Part shown: positions 44,371-59,333 of the stretch, one piece after another
How positions within the stretch are numbered: position 1 is the first letter of the stretch
Layout: every line of letters starts with the position of its first letter
Origin: Eledone cirrhosa
Taxonomy: Eukaryota
DNA: 64,000 bases
NCBI GenBank assembly: GCA_964016885.1
Contig: OZ024742.1
Coordinates: forward strand, 374,170,001 to 374,234,000
Direction: 5' to 3'
Notes under the pieces: model-generated
Told to the model about the DNA's origin: nothing
The model's input: only the letters and a program-made list of their open reading frames with translations
Databases searched by the model: none
Position numbers and translations under genes: made by a program

Positions 44371-44578
44371 CTGTTCAATATAACCCATATGTACATATGT
44401 ATAGTTATATATGTATGTATATGTATATATGTATATATGTATGTACGTATGCATACTTACATTTATGTATCAGCTGTGCTAGAGCGAGAAATAAAATTCT
44501 AATTTTATTTTTAAATATATATATATATATATATCAATGATATTAAATAAATGGAAACTATATTTATAAAACTATATT

Positions 44579-44639
44579 TATTCTATTATATATATTTCAA
44601 GGACACCAAAACTTTGGTATGCTCTCATCAGATAAAATA
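44579..44639 (-). ncRNA. Type I hammerhead ribozyme (minimal palindromic helix III)
   Basis: Reverse complement: TATTTTAT-CTGATGA-gagcataccaa agtt ttggtgtcctt-GAAA-TATATATA-ATAGAATA. It has an 8-bp helix I, an intact core, an 11-position helix II with one C-C mismatch, and an AUA cleavage triplet. Confidence 0.85.
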
Positions 44640-44783
44640 CAAAGTTTGTTTTATAAATATTGACATATCCAGGAAGGAGATCTTAACGGTTCAAGGAGAT
44701 CTTAACGGTTCAACTATCCAGGAAAAACTTGAACCGTTAAGATCTCCTTCCTGGATATGTCAATATTTATAAAACAAACTTTG

Positions 44784-44844
44784 TATTTTATCTGAAGAAA
44801 GCGTACCAAGGTTTTGGTACCCTTGAAATATATATAATAGAATA
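44784..44844 (+). ncRNA. Type I hammerhead ribozyme (minimal palindromic helix III)
   Basis: TATTTTAT (44784-44791), CTGAAGA (44792-44798), helix II 44799-44824, GAAA (44825-44828), TATATATA, ATAGAATA (44837-44844). Predicted cleavage after A44836. Confidence 0.87.
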
Positions 44845-45033
44845 AATATGCTTTTATAAATATAGTTTCCATTTATTTAATATCATTGATATTATACTCC
44901 AGAAAATCTGTCGAGTGCTTCGAATCAGTTATAAACATTTATATTTGTTGAGTTACCAACAAATTAAATATCCCTTTGCTTATATATATATTTAAAAATA
45001 AATATATATATAAATATATATAATTGAATATAC

Positions 45034-47299: not shown

Positions 47300-50088
47300 A
47301 CACATTCGGTATACATGCCTGACGCTGTATGCTAACCACTCCCTCGTGAATATACCATAGAACCGACAAGGGGCGGACGGAGGCTCCGTAAGCCGTAATG
47401 TAGGCAACCCGTCTAGGAGAGCTAACACTCCGAATAAATTGGTGCGGGGTAGAGAAGTCTCTTAAGTCCAGTAAGACAACTTCCCTAGTGCTGGTGGCAT
47501 GAATAAAAGCACCTAGTCCATGCTGTAAAAATGGAGGGGTGGTTAGGGCCCCTGAGTCCAGTAAGACGACCTCTCTAATGCTGGTGGCATGAATAAAAGC
47601 ACCTAGTCCATGCTGTAAAATGGAGGGGTAGAGAGGGCGCCTGAGTCCAGTAAGACATCCTCTCTAGTGCTGGTGGCACGAATAAAAGCACCTAGTTCAT
47701 GCTGTAAAGTGGTGCTGGTGTTAGGAAGGGCATCCAACCAGTATAATAAATGCCAAAATTATGAGCACAGCAAATAAGAATTGCAACCACTGCGACAACA
47801 GCAATAACACTAACCATGTTAGGGCTGCACACGGTAGTGGGATGGCTGGTGCGGCCATGTGCGAAAACCCTACGACCGTCATCAAGCAATCGCACAACAG
47901 GAAAAAGAACGAGATGTCGCATCTCAGAGTTGCCACACTTAATGTTGGCACTCTAACAGGTAGATCTGGTGAGATAGCGGAGATGCTGGAGAGAAGGCAT
48001 GTGGATGTGTGCTGTGTGCAAAAGGTGAGATGGAGAGGTGCCTCTGCAAGATTAATCGCAGGCAAATATCATAGTTATAAGCTTTTCTGGGTGGGTAATG
48101 ATGATGGGTTAGGGGAGGTGGGCATTTTACTGGCTGAGAGATGGATCAATAAGACAATAGAGGTAGTTAGAGTTAGTAATAGAATAATTAAGCTTAGATT
48201 AGTTGTAGGCAGGAGACTACTGACAATCATCTCGGCCTATACTCCCCAAGCAGGCCTAGGCAAAGATGAGAAAGACTGCTTTTACTAGCAACTTTTACAA
48301 ACAGCCTCAATGACAGAGGACAGACATCGTTATGCTAGCAGGGGACTTCAATGGACATGTTGGACAGCTCCAGGATGGATATACTGGGGTACATGTTGGG
48401 CACAGTTACGGCTCAAGAAATGAAGGAGTGAGGCTTCTTGAATTTTGTGATGAAAATGCACTAACCATTTGCAACACTAACTTCCAGAAGCCTACCAACC
48501 ACCTAATAACCTACAAATCAGGCGAGCACATAAGCCAGATTGATTTCCTGATAGTTAGACAGCGAGACAGAGAGATGGTGTCAAATACTAAGACATACCC
48601 TGGTGAAGAATGTACCCCACAGCATAGGTTAGTCGTTAGTGAGATCTCAGTAAGCAAGAGAAAGAATGAGACATACAGGAAGGTGTGGAAAAGAAAGGTC
48701 TGGAAGCCAAAAGACCTTTCATTAAAATATAAATTTAGCAAAGCCCTTCAAGATGTGTATGACGAAAAAGAAGACGATTTAGAGTTGTATGACAGATGAT
48801 AACTGGAATTTCTTATGTGACAACTTACTGCAGGCTACTGAAGAAACTTGTGGTTGGAGCAGAGCTTCGACCAGGCAGAGAGTGACCTGGTGGTGGAACA
48901 GCACAGTAGATAGGGCCATTAGAGATAAAAGACTGACATGGAAGGCTTGGAAAATAGGTGGGAGTAGGGAAGAATACACAGCCGCTAAGAGAGAAGCTAG
49001 ACGTCAGGTGTACTTAGCACGCAGGGAGGCTGAGAGTGGGAGGTTTGCCAATGTTCTGCGATGGGAAGATCAAGAACATGCGGTGTTCCGCATTGCAAGG
49101 CAGTGTGTCAGTGCAAATCAGGATGTTGTTGGAGATAAGTGTGTCCGGAATGATGCCGGTGTACTTAGTGTCATGAATGATCAAAAAAAGGAGGTCTGGA
49201 AATGTCATTATGAGAGACTGGTGAATGTGGAGAACGAATGGGAGAGAGAGAAATTACCCTTGGTAGATCCGACAGAGGGACCAGCTATTGAGATTGACGA
49301 ATATAGGGTACAAGAGGCAATTAAGGAAATGAAGAATGGTAAGGCTGCTGGGCCGTCGTGGATAGTTGCTGAGATGCTGAAGGCATCAGAAGTAGGCACT
49401 AAACTAGTTGCACGCATCATTAATCAAGTTATATATGGCGGATTCATACCCAAAGACTGGTGCAGCAGTATTCTCATAAATTGTTACAAAAGTAAAGGGG
49501 ATGCTCTAATGAGGAGCAATTATAGGGGCATAAAGCTGATGGATCATAAAGTGGCAGAGAGAATATTAGCGTAACTGATTAGAGAAAGGGTCAAATTAGA
49601 TGAGATGCAGTTTGGTTTTGTGCCTGGGAAAAGTACAACAGGTGCCCTCTTCTTAGTGAGGCAACTACAAGAGAGGTTCTTAGAGAAGAATAAGCCACTA
49701 TACTTAGCTTTTGTTGGCCTAGAGAAGGCCTTTGATAGGGTACCCCGATCTGTCATCTGGTGGTCCCTAAGGAAACTAGGTGTTGAGGGATGGTTTGTGA
49801 GGACAGTGTAAGCTATGTACAGAGGTGCTGTCAGTAAAGTGAGAATAGGAATGGAGTTTAGTGAGGAATTCCAGATACAAGTAGGTGTACATCAGGGTTC
49901 GGTCCTCAGCCCGCTCTTGTTCATTATAGTCCTCCAAGCCATAACAGAGGAGTTTAAGACTGGCTGCCCATGGGAACTTCTCTATGCTGATGACCTGGTT
50001 CTTATAGCAGAATCAGTAGAGGAGTTAGAGAATAAATTCTGTCTATGGAAACAGCAGTTGAAATCAAGAGGCCTGAGAGTGAACATAG
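47300..50088 (+). pseudogene. RTE-clade non-LTR retrotransposon: 5' UTR plus disrupted APE endonuclease-reverse transcriptase ORF, truncated after the RT core
   Basis: ORF pieces 47761-48288, 48332-48799, 48789-49574, 49605-49811 and 49815-50088 carry ATLNVGTL, GDFNGHVG, QIDF, HRLV, NYRGIKL, QFGF, LEKAFDRV, VGVHQGSVLSPLLF and LLYADDLVL, broken by stops and frameshifts. Confidence 0.95.
47446..47712 (+). repeat. Three tandem ~89-bp units in the RTE 5' UTR
   Basis: agtccagtaagac...tgctggtggca(t/c)gaataaaagcacctag...catgctgtaaa recurs at ~47465, ~47555 and ~47644. Confidence 0.92.
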
Positions 50089-50506
50089 CTGGGTGCTTTT
50101 TTGTCGTGGCACCTCCACGACCACTTTGCAGTGGGGGGTGTGGGGGAATATTGTCTATATGCTTCAGCTTGTACCCATGGGAGGTCGCGTCTTCTGTATT
50201 ACTGCGTGACGCCAGAGGTCACGGTCGTGTGTCATCACCTTTAAGAGGTGTAATTGGGTAAGGTCGGCCTTTATCACCTCATCCCAGGTCTTCTTGGGTC
50301 TCCCAACTCCATGGCTTCCCTCGACTTCTAGTGCTCTGCACTTTTTTATGCAGCTGTCATCCTTCATACGCATCACATGTCCATACCAACGCAACCTCCT
50401 CTCCTGCACACAGCATTTGATTCCTCTCATGCTCAGTCTCTCTCTCAATTCGTTTATGCTTTGCCATTCGCGTATATTACTATTACACATCCATCGGAGC
50501 ATGCAG
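50088..50506 (-). mobile_element. Inverted RTE 3' fragment (ORF C-terminus plus 3' UTR)
   Basis: Minus ORF 50164..50694 contains MLRWMC...RRLRWYGHVMRM...GRPKKTWDEVIKADL...MTHDRDLWRHAV, a typical RTE C-terminus, followed by the UTR shared with the SINE chimera. Confidence 0.9.
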
Positions 50507-50899: not shown

Positions 50900-53253
50900 G
50901 GATTATGTCAAAAACTAAACCTCATTTGATCATTCCATGAGGAACCTCTAGGCGACTCTGATCATGCTATGATCATTGCCAATCTGGCTCTTGCGGGCAG
51001 CAACAAAAACAAGAACCATCTCCAATCTGCTTGCTTTGATTAGAAGAAAGCAGATTGGAACTTGTACTACACTGAGCTACAGCGCCCAAACTGGCATGAG
51101 TTCTATAACTCTGGAGATGTGAACACTATACTCCAGAGCATGCTGGACTCAACATGGATAGTGTGTGCAGCATCAGTGCCACGTAAGCAGAAAAAACCCC
51201 ACCCCAAAAGTGCAATTTGGGAAACTTTAGCGGTCCAACTTGCCAGGAAAGAACGTTGGAATGCTGAACGGGAATATAAACTGCATAAATCAGATGCCAA
51301 CAGAAAAAAGCGGAATAAATCTTCCAACCATCTCAAGCAAGTGACAAAAAAGCAGTGCTTGAATTTGAACAGTGCATAGCAACCAATCCTGACAGTAAGG
51401 TCTTCTGGAAATATGTACATTCAAAGCAGAGACCTCACTCTCCAGTTGGTCCTCTTCGCAATCCCCACACAAGCCAGATCACTGACGATCCCAAACAATG
51501 CACAGAACACATTGCTGAGTGCTATGCAAGCATTTTTACTGTTTAAAACCAGAATGTACCATCTCCACCATCTCTAACATCAAATTCCATAACAACTATG
51601 GAATTTACACCTGCAATGCTGTGATGTCACCTTAAGAATAAGCACAACTATGCCTCCCCTGGTCTTGATGGTGTGACATACCTGCTTCTCAAACGTGGCG
51701 GGTATTTCCTTTTGCACCAGCTTTCTTTCTTCTTTCAATACTGTCTCAACAATGGTGCTACTCCGGAACAGTGGAAAACTGCCAGTGTCATTCCCCTGTT
51801 CAAAAAGGGCGACCGCACGTCACCTGTCAACTATTGTCCAGTCAGTCTTACTAGCTGTATTGCCAAACTGATGGAATCCTGTGTCAGAGAAACACTTTAC
51901 TTCTGGAGCTCTCACAGCCTCATCCGGCCCTCGCCTAGGATTTATCCCTAACTCCAGCTGCTGTGATCAGCTTATCGAGTTCCTTGAAGACATTACCCGG
52001 ATCACTGACAGCGGCTCATGGGTGGATGTTGTTTACCTTGACTTCGCTAAGGCTTTTAATTCTGTGCCACACAAAAGAATTATGGCGAAACTCTCTGCAA
52101 TGGGTGTGAAGGATGATCTTTTTAACTGGTTGAAATCCTTCATTCTCAGCCGAAAAGAGGTAGTCACGGTTCTAGGACAGCATTCTTCACCATATGAGAT
52201 GTCATCTGGTGTACCACAAGGATCTGTTCTTGGTCCCCTTTTGTTTGTTGTATACATTAATGACATAGATGCCAACTTAAAGAATGCCACAGTACTGAAA
52301 TATGCAGATGACATCAAGCTGTACCTTGAAATCAAAAGGACAGATCCTGAAACCTACAATCAGACCTGGACACAATGCAGCAATGGATCACAGACTGGCA
52401 ACTGAAGCTGGCTGTGGACAAGTGTACCACCATGCATTTTGGAAGGAAAAATCCAGCGTCCACATACTCCCTCCACAACACTGATATCAAGAAGTCCTCT
52501 TGTGAACGTGACCTGGGCATTATGGTCAGCAGCGATTTGCGTTGGACAAAGCACATCTCTAAAATTGTCAAGAAGGCCGAGGGTGTCTTGGCATCACTCA
52601 GCAAGACCTTTGTTAGCCGCTCTCCAGCCATCTATTTAAAGCAGTATACAGCTATGGTACGACCACAATTGGAATTTGCATCATCAGTCTGGAACCTCTA
52701 TCTTGCTCAGAACATTGACCTCCTGGAAACTGTTCAGAGACGTGCAACCAAGCGCATACCCTCCATCAGACACCTACCATACTCTGAACGCCTTGCTTCC
52801 CTGGACATGGATTCATTGAAGCTCCGACGTCTGGCAATGGACTTGGTAAACACCCACAAAGTTATTAACCATCTCGCCAACAACAACCCTGAGCACCTTT
52901 TTGATCTCCATGTGTCTAACACACGTGGACATGCCTACAAAGACAGAAAACAGCACAGCTCCCATGACTTTCGGAAACTTTTTTTCACGCTTAGAGTTGC
53001 TGAAGCATGGAAAAAACTTCCTGCATCAGTTGTTAGCTGCCGAGACACTGCATCCTTTAAAACCCTCATGCTTCCCAAAATTCGCCAATACTACACCTGA
53101 TGTCCCTCTTCCATACACATGCACACATGTGTATATCATGACTCATGCACTGTTCATTTTCCTGACGTTTGTAAATTACCCTATGTACTATACATACACT
53201 TTTGATGAGTTGTAGTGCACCTGAACACTGTACACAATATTTTCATTATTATT
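50900..53253 (+). pseudogene. CR1/L2-group LINE, 5'-truncated, disrupted ORF2 with 3' UTR and (ATT)n tail
   Basis: EEPLGDSDHAMI (end of APE, ~50938), WKTASVIPLFKKG, NYCPVSLTS, VDVVYLDFAKAF, GVPQGSVLGPLLF, YADD, YSERL...LRR, TRGH, FFTLRV..W..LP; tail gagttgtagtgcacctga...cattattatta. Confidence 0.93.
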
Positions 53254-58831: not shown

Positions 58832-59333
58832 GTTATCAATGTAGAAAACAAGTCATTTTCACCAACAGTGGAGTTAACTTAAATGAAAATATAGGTGGCC
58901 CTTAAAAGGGCCAAATTAGAAAACAAATTTATGGTTATCAAATTTTTTTCACCAACCCTTTATGAAGAAATGTTTAGAAAACAAATTTTTTTCACCAACC
59001 TTATTCAAAAGCATGGATACAGTCCACATGGAGACAAGAGACAGTCCCATGGAGATTGATGGTATCTGCTGTAGTAGCGGTAGCGATGGAAAGATCGCGA
59101 TGGTTAATTCCATTAACAATTTGGCCCTTTTAAGTGCCACCTATATTTTCATTTAAGTTAACTCCACTGTTGGTGAAAATGACTTGTTTTCTACATTGAT
59201 AACCATGACTATGAAAATATAAATGATTAAATCCAATTTATTTGATAACCATGACTTTTCTAATTAACTTAAATTTGTTTTCTAACTTGGCCCTTTTAAG
59301 GGCCACCTATATTTTCATTTAAGTAACTCCACT
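58832..59333. repeat. Foldback: 86-bp inverted arms with a third partial arm
   Basis: 58832-58917 is the reverse complement of 59118-59203 (one mismatch seen); 59273-59333 is a further reverse copy of about 58868-58930. Confidence 0.9.

What the first reader, a model, noticed from the sequence alone, without database searches (positions are those of the whole stretch)
44531..44892. Two complete, outward-facing hammerhead ribozymes in a 165-bp inverted repeat, with compensatory changes
Seen: each arm has helix I (TATTTTAT/ATAGAATA), core CUGA(U/A)GA, a long helix II, GAAA and a palindromic TATATA helix III with an AUA cleavage triplet. I count 8 differences between the arms. Six fall in the ribozyme and all are structure-neutral: free position 7, a loop base, G-C to A-U covariation, U-A to U-G and A-U to G-U. 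A C-C mismatch in helix II is kept in both. Established: Penelope-like elements carry minimal type I hammerheads with palindromic helix III that cleave as dimers, in direct or inverted pseudo-LTRs. Inference: this is a non-autonomous ribozyme-bearing retroelement whose arms may come from two distinct functional variants. A read-through transcript from either strand would fold into a long hairpin masking its own ribozyme, a possible self-silencing or siRNA switch.
Basis: partly seen in the sequence, partly recalled or inferred. Interest (0 to 1): 0.75.

Follow-up and report, generated by a model that had tools for sequence, protein, structure and literature searches.

The report
Head-to-head Penelope retroelement ends with hammerheads
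The two mirror-image self-cutting-RNA motifs are in the sequence as described, but they are the short, back-to-back end pieces of a very abundant Penelope-type jumping gene, likely left by one insertion and since mutated, in a layout that is already published.

Summary
Observation confirmed: 165-nt inverted arms, 8 differences, a type I hammerhead motif on each strand. The insert runs on to 44980. The arms are the 3' end (pseudo-LTR) of a protein-coding Penelope-like family with Hydra-clade motifs, traced through longer copies to an RT plus GIY-YIG frame. One pattern finds 38,007 such motifs in this genome, about 16% in outward-facing pairs. Inverted truncated copies, one-sided tails and opposite-strand hammerhead pairs are published. 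'Two functional variants' is not supported. Each arm differs from the family majority at 4 sites, both haplotypes are unique among 1,644 copies, and the A-U pair occurs in 4 of 1,644 (about 2 expected). Other pairs mostly share derived letters, which points to one template. Real covariation lies between subfamilies, around a C-C mismatch kept in 34,076 of 38,007 motifs; that is the one modestly new point. Cleavage and silencing are untested. The scan reported this layout before, in this genome and others.

The parts
44515..44534 (.). Left (TA)n target microsatellite
   Evidence: Sequence; tailless arms of the family end in (TA)n
44531..44695 (-). Left arm: 5'-truncated inverted pseudo-LTR copy without tail
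   Evidence: 95% match to the 3' end of ORF-bearing copy L051
44579..44639 (-). Type I hammerhead motif of the left arm; predicted cut after 44587
   Evidence: three private helix II changes
44693..44713 (-). Re-copied 21-nt piece (arm positions 22 to 2), likely a template-jump scar at the inversion junction
   Evidence: Exact-match parse against L011; direct repeat D13
44713..44757 (+). Element-intrinsic hairpin at the 5' truncation point of the right copy
   Evidence: -14.7 kcal/mol, z -3.1 for 44708-44767; aligned arm starts lie within 25 nt of each other in 9 of 11 further pairs
44713..44892 (+). Right arm: 5'-truncated pseudo-LTR (end of the 3' UTR) of the Penelope-like element
   Evidence: 96% match over 184 nt to the 3' end of L051
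44784..44844 (+). Type I hammerhead motif of the right arm; predicted cut after A44836; C-C mismatch 44802/44821
44893..44980 (+). 88-nt one-sided 'tail'; in full-length copies it continues into the leader of the ORF
44981..44991 (.). Right (TA)n target microsatellite
   Evidence: Sequence

Best explanation
This is a 450-base insertion in a TA microsatellite made of two head-to-head 3' end pieces of a protein-coding Penelope-like retrotransposon (likely Hydra clade), likely written in one insertion event from one RNA template and likely decaying since. Shown: the arms match the pseudo-LTR of copies that encode RT followed by a GIY-YIG-type domain; one arm has the tail and the other does not; the junction lies at a hairpin in the 3' UTR and holds a re-copied 21-nt piece. 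Inferred: the element's protein nicked the (TA)n target and began reverse transcription at the tail end. Synthesis stalled at the hairpin about 80 nt upstream of the ribozyme. The cDNA folded back or jumped and recopied the same stretch, and the second arm was resolved at the arm/tail boundary onto the other TA end. The 8 differences then arose as ordinary mutations, 4 per arm. The ribozyme was likely under selection in source elements, where it would cut tandem precursor RNA as a dimer or with the element's protein. At this locus the two motifs lie on opposite strands, so one transcript holds only one, and a read-through hairpin would mask it: it is likely inert.
For: Parent element: RT (YRDD) and C-terminal GIY-YIG-type frames on the ribozyme strand in L051, L052, L053, L061, L067; arm, tail, then ORF in L060, L064, L066. 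One-sided tail in 16 of 19 pairs and 11 of 11 further pairs. One template: in those 11 pairs the arms share 64 derived letters against 35 differences, and 10 of 11 share at least 2 (3 pairs were picked for a shared rare letter). In 20 other pairs the mean of shared derived letters is 0.95 against 0.29 for random pairs. Decay after insertion: rare deviations are 15 of 1,027 core cells (1.5%) against 97 of 8,482 flank cells (1.1%); only 16 of 64 copies with a ribozyme change stay fully intact; all 4 of 100 copies with the G-to-A change listed leave an A.C mismatch. Selection in source lineages: no shared deviation in the core, and compensatory pairs between subfamilies. Published precedent.
Against: The window's arms share no derived letter and differ at 44799, a common family polymorphism (35 A, 56 G, 9 T among the first 100); 5 of 20 pairs are discordant there. 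All six ribozyme changes are structure-neutral (resampling about 0.2%), and 6 of 8 differences fall in the ribozyme (P about 0.02-0.03). Pair L114 of a sister subfamily differs only within helix II, by two haplotypes that recur elsewhere, which a single template with later point mutation does not explain well. Arm-arm differences outside helix II are rarer in the ribozyme (9 of 660) than in the flanks (66 of 1,762); base composition and junction noise confound this. Pfam names neither domain; they were read from motifs.
Confidence: 0.8

Rival explanations
1. Same element and layout, but the two arms were copied from two different RNAs (a dimeric RNP priming on both nicked strands, at the two initiation sites) or helix II of one arm was later converted by another copy. 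Some arm differences would then be inherited, selected variants.
For: Discordance at the polymorphic site 44799 and no shared derived letter in this pair; 6 of 6 neutral changes; L114 differs only in helix II by recurring haplotypes. The Anolis protein cleaves and extends both strands and is modelled as a dimer (PMC11167929). An earlier scan note on another genome saw a similar sign (e1-9539494, unchecked).
Against: Both haplotypes are unique in the genome. Seven of the 8 differing letters are at 11% or less among 88 copies. Most pairs share derived letters. Two independent starts would give tails on both or neither arm about half the time; one-sided tails are 27 of 30.
Confidence: 0.14
2. One reading: a non-autonomous fold-back mini-element that moves as a unit, or a host-kept switch in which a read-through hairpin masks the ribozyme and yields small RNAs.
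For: The hairpin is predicted to be very stable; both ribozymes are structurally intact; outward-facing pairs are common (8 pairs among the first 100 motifs in each).
Against: Junctions differ from pair to pair (arm starts 1 to 1,262 nt apart), as expected of independent truncations rather than a replicated unit. Arms are contiguous with an ORF-bearing body in long copies. Copies decay in the core at flank rate.
Confidence: 0.05
3. A DNA fold-back or miniature inverted-repeat transposon that captured a ribozyme.
For: Long inverted arms and a TA target.
Against: The ends are asymmetric (tail on one side), most copies are single arms with variable 5' truncation, and the parent encodes an RT.
Confidence: 0.01

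Closest known systems
Hydra-clade Penelope-like elements (Craig et al. 2021, PMC8557442), e.g. Penelope-13_HM and Hydra-1_Obim
   Same: RT then C-terminal GIY-YIG, DKT, CxCX5C linker, CxxC and CxH around the conserved E and N, (TA)n target, hammerhead near the 3' end. Penelope-13_HM is listed with a 5'-truncated inverted copy and a hammerhead on each strand.
   Different: A different family: the hammerhead differs from that listed for Hydra-1_Obim. The 3' UTR is about 1.15 kb and the unit about 3.7 kb (my estimate from pieces) against 'generally <3 kb'. The tail is 88 nt against the 30-40 bp described. RWR replaces RWK. None of the Hydra hammerheads in File S2 shows a C-C mismatch in stem II or an all-A/U helix III (read by eye).
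Minimal type I hammerheads of metazoan PLE pseudo-LTRs (Cervera and de la Pena 2014, PMC4209133)
   Same: Long helix II, short palindromic helix III, dimer architecture, mostly lone motifs from truncated copies, and 'dual min-HHRs ... ~100-700 bp ... in opposite strands'.
   Different: No G10.1-C11.1 pair or clear extra nucleotide in this subfamily; an 8-bp helix I; a conserved C-C mismatch; 38,007 pattern matches against the 4,000 and 9,000 called remarkable there (different search methods).
Poseidon element of Anolis (PAc; Frangieh et al. 2024, PMC11167929)
   Same: The tail lies between two RT start sites; AT-rich target; the ribozyme cut only with the element's protein present and was dispensable for insertion in vitro.
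   Different: A different clade; there the ORF starts inside the ribozyme, here about 200 nt after it. The biochemistry is untested for this family.
Animal non-LTR retrozymes (bioRxiv 10.64898/2026.07.22.740005)
   Same: Non-coding, type I hammerhead, related to PLE pseudo-LTRs.
   Different: Retrozymes are head-to-tail tandem units; this is a head-to-head pair contiguous in other copies with the ORF-bearing body.

Membership tests
Endonuclease-positive Penelope-like element | Single ORF with RT and C-terminal GIY-YIG on the ribozyme strand | tested here: met
   In other copies, read from motifs and by eye against the published alignment; no Pfam or PDB hit; absent from the window itself
Endonuclease-positive Penelope-like element | Pseudo-LTR formed by a truncated upstream copy, with hammerhead | tested here: met
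   Arm, tail, then ORF in L060, L064, L066, L070, L077, L079, L082; tandem in L055
Endonuclease-positive Penelope-like element | Adjacent inverted 5'-truncated copy and one-sided tail | tested here: met
   16 of 19 and 11 of 11 pairs have one tail; the tail is 88 nt rather than 30-40
Hydra clade | DKT motif and CxCX5C linker | tested here: met
   KSDKTNN and CNCRIKSNC in several copies
Hydra clade | RWK motif | tested here: inconclusive
   RWR in this family; RWK at the aligned place in the 38%-identical P0002
Hydra clade | [quoted passage not shown] | tested here: inconclusive
   CHLC..EE..N..CRH present in L051; absence of CCHH not tested by alignment
Hydra clade | Insertion into (TA)n | tested here: met
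   Both ends here and most ends of the 52 arms
Hydra clade | Phylogenetic placement of the RT | not tested
   The published reference proteins were not available as tool sequences; compared by eye only
PLE type I minimal hammerhead | CUGANGA/GAAA core, NUH triplet, helices I and II, palindromic helix III | tested here: met
PLE type I minimal hammerhead | Typical G10.1-C11.1 pair | tested here: not met
   G.U 59, A-U 30 of 94 motifs; described as highly conserved, not as required
PLE type I minimal hammerhead | Self-cleavage as a dimer or with protein | not testable with these tools
   Predicted helix III self-duplex only -3.2 kcal/mol; the monomer with helix III closed is 2.9-3.5 kcal/mol less stable than with it open
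Non-LTR retrozyme | Head-to-tail tandem units each with a hammerhead | tested here: not met
   Head-to-head pair; no further copy in the window

The most novel reading that the evidence does not exclude
This genome holds tens of thousands of a hammerhead variant in which a C-C mismatch at the fourth step of helix II is a required element (tertiary contact or grip for the element's protein), kept while neighbouring pairs changed in compensation across at least six subfamilies; and some head-to-head pairs, perhaps this one, are built from two different RNAs by a dimeric RT-endonuclease, so that pairs record the insertion mechanism.
Probability: 0.25. Interest if true: 0.5.

Novelty: new member of a known kind. 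Interest (0 to 1): 0.22.

Why it matters
The locus itself is ordinary. The family offers an estimated 3,000 inverted pairs with one-sided tails and hairpin-sited junctions, a ready data set for the still unsettled question of how Penelope-like elements make inverted ends (fold-back against two templates). It also offers a natural covariation set for a hammerhead variant with an invariant C-C mismatch that can be assayed directly.

Tried and rejected
Rfam found no hammerhead family at gathering score or at E<=10; the microRNA hits are generic hairpin matches below their cut-offs. Pfam gave nothing meaningful on 6 family fragments (5 distinct stretches) or on P0001/P0002; the PDB sequence search gave 0. 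My first guess of the Neptune clade was dropped after DKT and CxCX5C matched Hydra. No RT or endonuclease remnant of this family lies elsewhere in the window. Sequencing runs: no RNA holder listed. Laying four contig sets was swamped by repeat copies, and no empty-site allele or RNA end could be read. An inverted target duplication as a general rule was rejected: an 11-nt match beyond the TA runs occurs here only; the other 18 rows printed match 0-4 nt. The sequence look-up in earlier findings was blank. Paper searches: hammerhead+octopus gave no ribozyme study beyond Craig et al. among 20 listed of 51. The O. vulgaris repeat paper PMC13282606 has 0 occurrences of hammerhead, ribozyme or Hydra. 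Lunse et al. 2017 (PMC5785218) is not held, so a C-C mismatch there cannot be excluded. No search was aimed at the C-C mismatch itself, so I do not claim it is absent from print.

Full report
1. Observation. The inverted repeat is as described: arms 44531-44695 and 44728-44892, 165 nt, 95% complementary, with 8 differences, six inside the ribozyme. Each arm reads helix I (8 bp), CUGANGA, a 10-pair helix II interrupted by C-C, GAAA, a palindromic AUAUAUAU helix III and an AUA triplet (A44836; 44587 on the minus strand). A motif scan found two other loose matches in the window (59497, 60029), which I did not follow. Rfam does not recognise the motif. Alone, each ribozyme region folds only modestly better than shuffles (z -1.9 and -1.2). 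The case for the fold rests on the core and on covariation in the family.

2. It is a high-copy repeat. The right arm gave 2,439 candidates in the 3.0-Gb genome G000; 40 were scored, the near-full-length matches at 92-100% identity. A pattern for the core and flanking helices matches 38,007 times against 1 for the reversed control. The subfamily of this locus, with the six variable sites left free, has 1,644 exact matches. Among the first 100 motifs listed in each I counted 8 outward-facing pairs within 1 kb (16 of 100 motifs). That extrapolates to about 3,000 pairs; it is an estimate from one chromosome arm.

3. True extent and parent. In copies, an arm ends either at the arm boundary into (TA)n or continues through an 88-nt tail into (TA)n. 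Here the left arm has no tail and the right arm does (44893-44980). Upstream, copies share a long body. In L051 the arm lies 1,146 nt after the stop of a frame ending in a GIY-YIG-type domain, preceded by RT with YRDD. In L060, L064, L066 and others the order is arm, tail, about 55 nt, then the likely start codon. All long copies I translated are broken by stops or frameshifts. The protein is about 38% identical to two unnamed proteins of 711 and 721 aa. It shows DKT, CxCX5C and CxxC..E..N..CxH, the Hydra-clade marks in section 11 of PMC8557442, and by eye resembles the Hydra rows of that paper's alignment rather than the Neptune rows. No tree was built. The locus is therefore a truncated insertion of a protein-coding family, not a separate non-autonomous element.

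4. How the pair was made. The centre parses exactly as: reverse arm down to position 1, a re-copy of positions 22 to 2, then the forward strand from position -15. This lies on a hairpin intrinsic to the 3' UTR (z -3.1). In 9 of 11 pairs taken from the pattern lists, the aligned arm starts lie within 25 nt of each other in this region. The tail is on exactly one arm in 16 of 19 pairs. Of the other three, two are full-length copies whose forward arm runs on into the ORF, and one has a truncated arm. Three of the 16 have a cut partner or lie at a locus edge. It is also on one arm in 11 of 11 further pairs (read from printed flanks). Arms of a pair usually share derived letters: 64 shared against 35 different in those 11 pairs, three of which were chosen for a shared rare letter, and 0.95 against 0.29 per pair in 20 others. 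This fits one coordinated event from one template; the fold-back step is inference.

5. The 'two variants' claim. Against 88 family copies each arm departs from the majority at 4 sites. The A-U pair needs two changes seen singly in 4 and 3 of the first 100 copies. Both together occur in 4 of 1,644, including this arm; 1.97 are expected if independent (P=0.14). The left haplotype is unique, and so is the right one among 27 copies with A at position 7. In 86 copies (12 of 98 alignments dropped: 10 under 85% identity, 2 from L075), rare changes hit the core as often as the flanks (1.5% against 1.1%), while shared changes avoid the core. Only 16 of 64 copies with a ribozyme change keep core and pairs intact. 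That is decay of inserted copies with selection in the source lineages. Against my reading: resampling gives about 0.2% for both arms staying intact after 3 changes each. The concentration of differences in the ribozyme has P about 0.02-0.03. The arms differ at the common polymorphism 44799. L114 shows a pair whose six ribozyme differences sit in helix II, both forms recurring elsewhere. With thousands of pairs and a reader selecting for neatness, 0.2% is not decisive, but mixed templates or conversion are not excluded.

6. What is conserved. In 31 motifs from loci taken in genome order, helix II shows compensatory states between subfamilies: pair 2 A-U 16, G-C 13; pair 3 G-C 23, A-U 6; pair 5 G-C 19, A-U 7; pair 6 U-A 19, C-G 9; pair 9 C-G 23, U-A 6. 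Step 4 is C-C in 27 and paired in none. Genome-wide, 34,076 of 38,007 motifs have C-C there. These counts are sequences, not independent events, and only this subfamily was linked to an ORF. The Hydra hammerheads listed in File S2 of PMC8557442 show no such mismatch. A structural or protein-binding role is a hypothesis.

7. Function at this locus. A read-through RNA would fold into a hairpin of about -242 kcal/mol that buries the ribozyme, and the two motifs cannot form the in-transcript dimer because they are on opposite strands. PLE minimal hammerheads did not cut as monomers and cut weakly as dimers (PMC4209133); the Anolis one cut only with the element's protein (PMC11167929). I found no RNA data that bear on it. 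A silencing role would most simply be a by-product shared by thousands of pairs.

8. What is known. Inverted 5'-truncated copies and one-sided tails: PMC8557442 (passages, section 11 and supplement parts seen), with Penelope-13_HM carrying a hammerhead on each strand. Opposite-strand hammerhead pairs 100-700 bp apart: PMC4209133 (parts 1-2 of 4 read). Tail as the span between two RT starts: PMC11167929 (parts 1-2 of 4). Retrozymes: bioRxiv 10.64898/2026.07.22.740005 (part 1 of 5; supplements closed). PMC6765202 and PMC13282606: passages only. Earlier scan notes describe the same layout in this genome and others (unchecked AI notes).

9. Verdict. Real, ordinary in kind: a new family member of a known class in a published arrangement. 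Interest 0.22.

Noticed in passing
window 44504-44514 and 44992-45002: The flanks beyond the two TA runs are an exact 11-nt inverted match, seen in no other pair examined. The target may have been a small A/T palindrome, or flank DNA was recopied.
   Followed up: partly
L114 (G000:C1:17021100-17022300): Spacerless inverted pair of a sister subfamily whose arms are near-identical in the flanks but differ at 6 sites within helix II; both forms recur elsewhere. Possible two-template or conversion case.
   Followed up: partly
window 1-43200: About 43 kb of a very A/T-rich, strand-skewed minisatellite (units of 9, 14 and 16 nt; GC 11-13% over most of it), with a few interruptions.
   Followed up: no
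window 58872-58917 (-): Rfam histone 3' stem-loop above the gathering score; a histone gene or pseudogene may lie nearby.
   Followed up: no
window 47761-50261 (+) and 51881-53100 (+): Broken frames that look like LINE endonuclease and RT remnants (family names not tested).
   Followed up: no
window 47438-47705: Three tandem copies of an 89-nt unit, 80-100% alike.
   Followed up: no
L054:4887-6134 and L056:5071-6345: Intronless frames of about 420 aa resembling ligand-gated ion channel subunits (recalled resemblance to cephalopod chemotactile receptors), each followed within 400 nt by a copy of this element, in a duplicated cluster on contig C11.
   Followed up: no
L051:1058-2204: The family has an unusually long (about 1.15 kb) A/T-rich 3' UTR, and an Asn-rich stretch before the linker cysteines.
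   Followed up: no
L055:9182-9856 (-), L056:3306-3776 (+), L053:465-983 (-): Fragments of other GIY-YIG-type retroelement frames near copies of this family.
   Followed up: no
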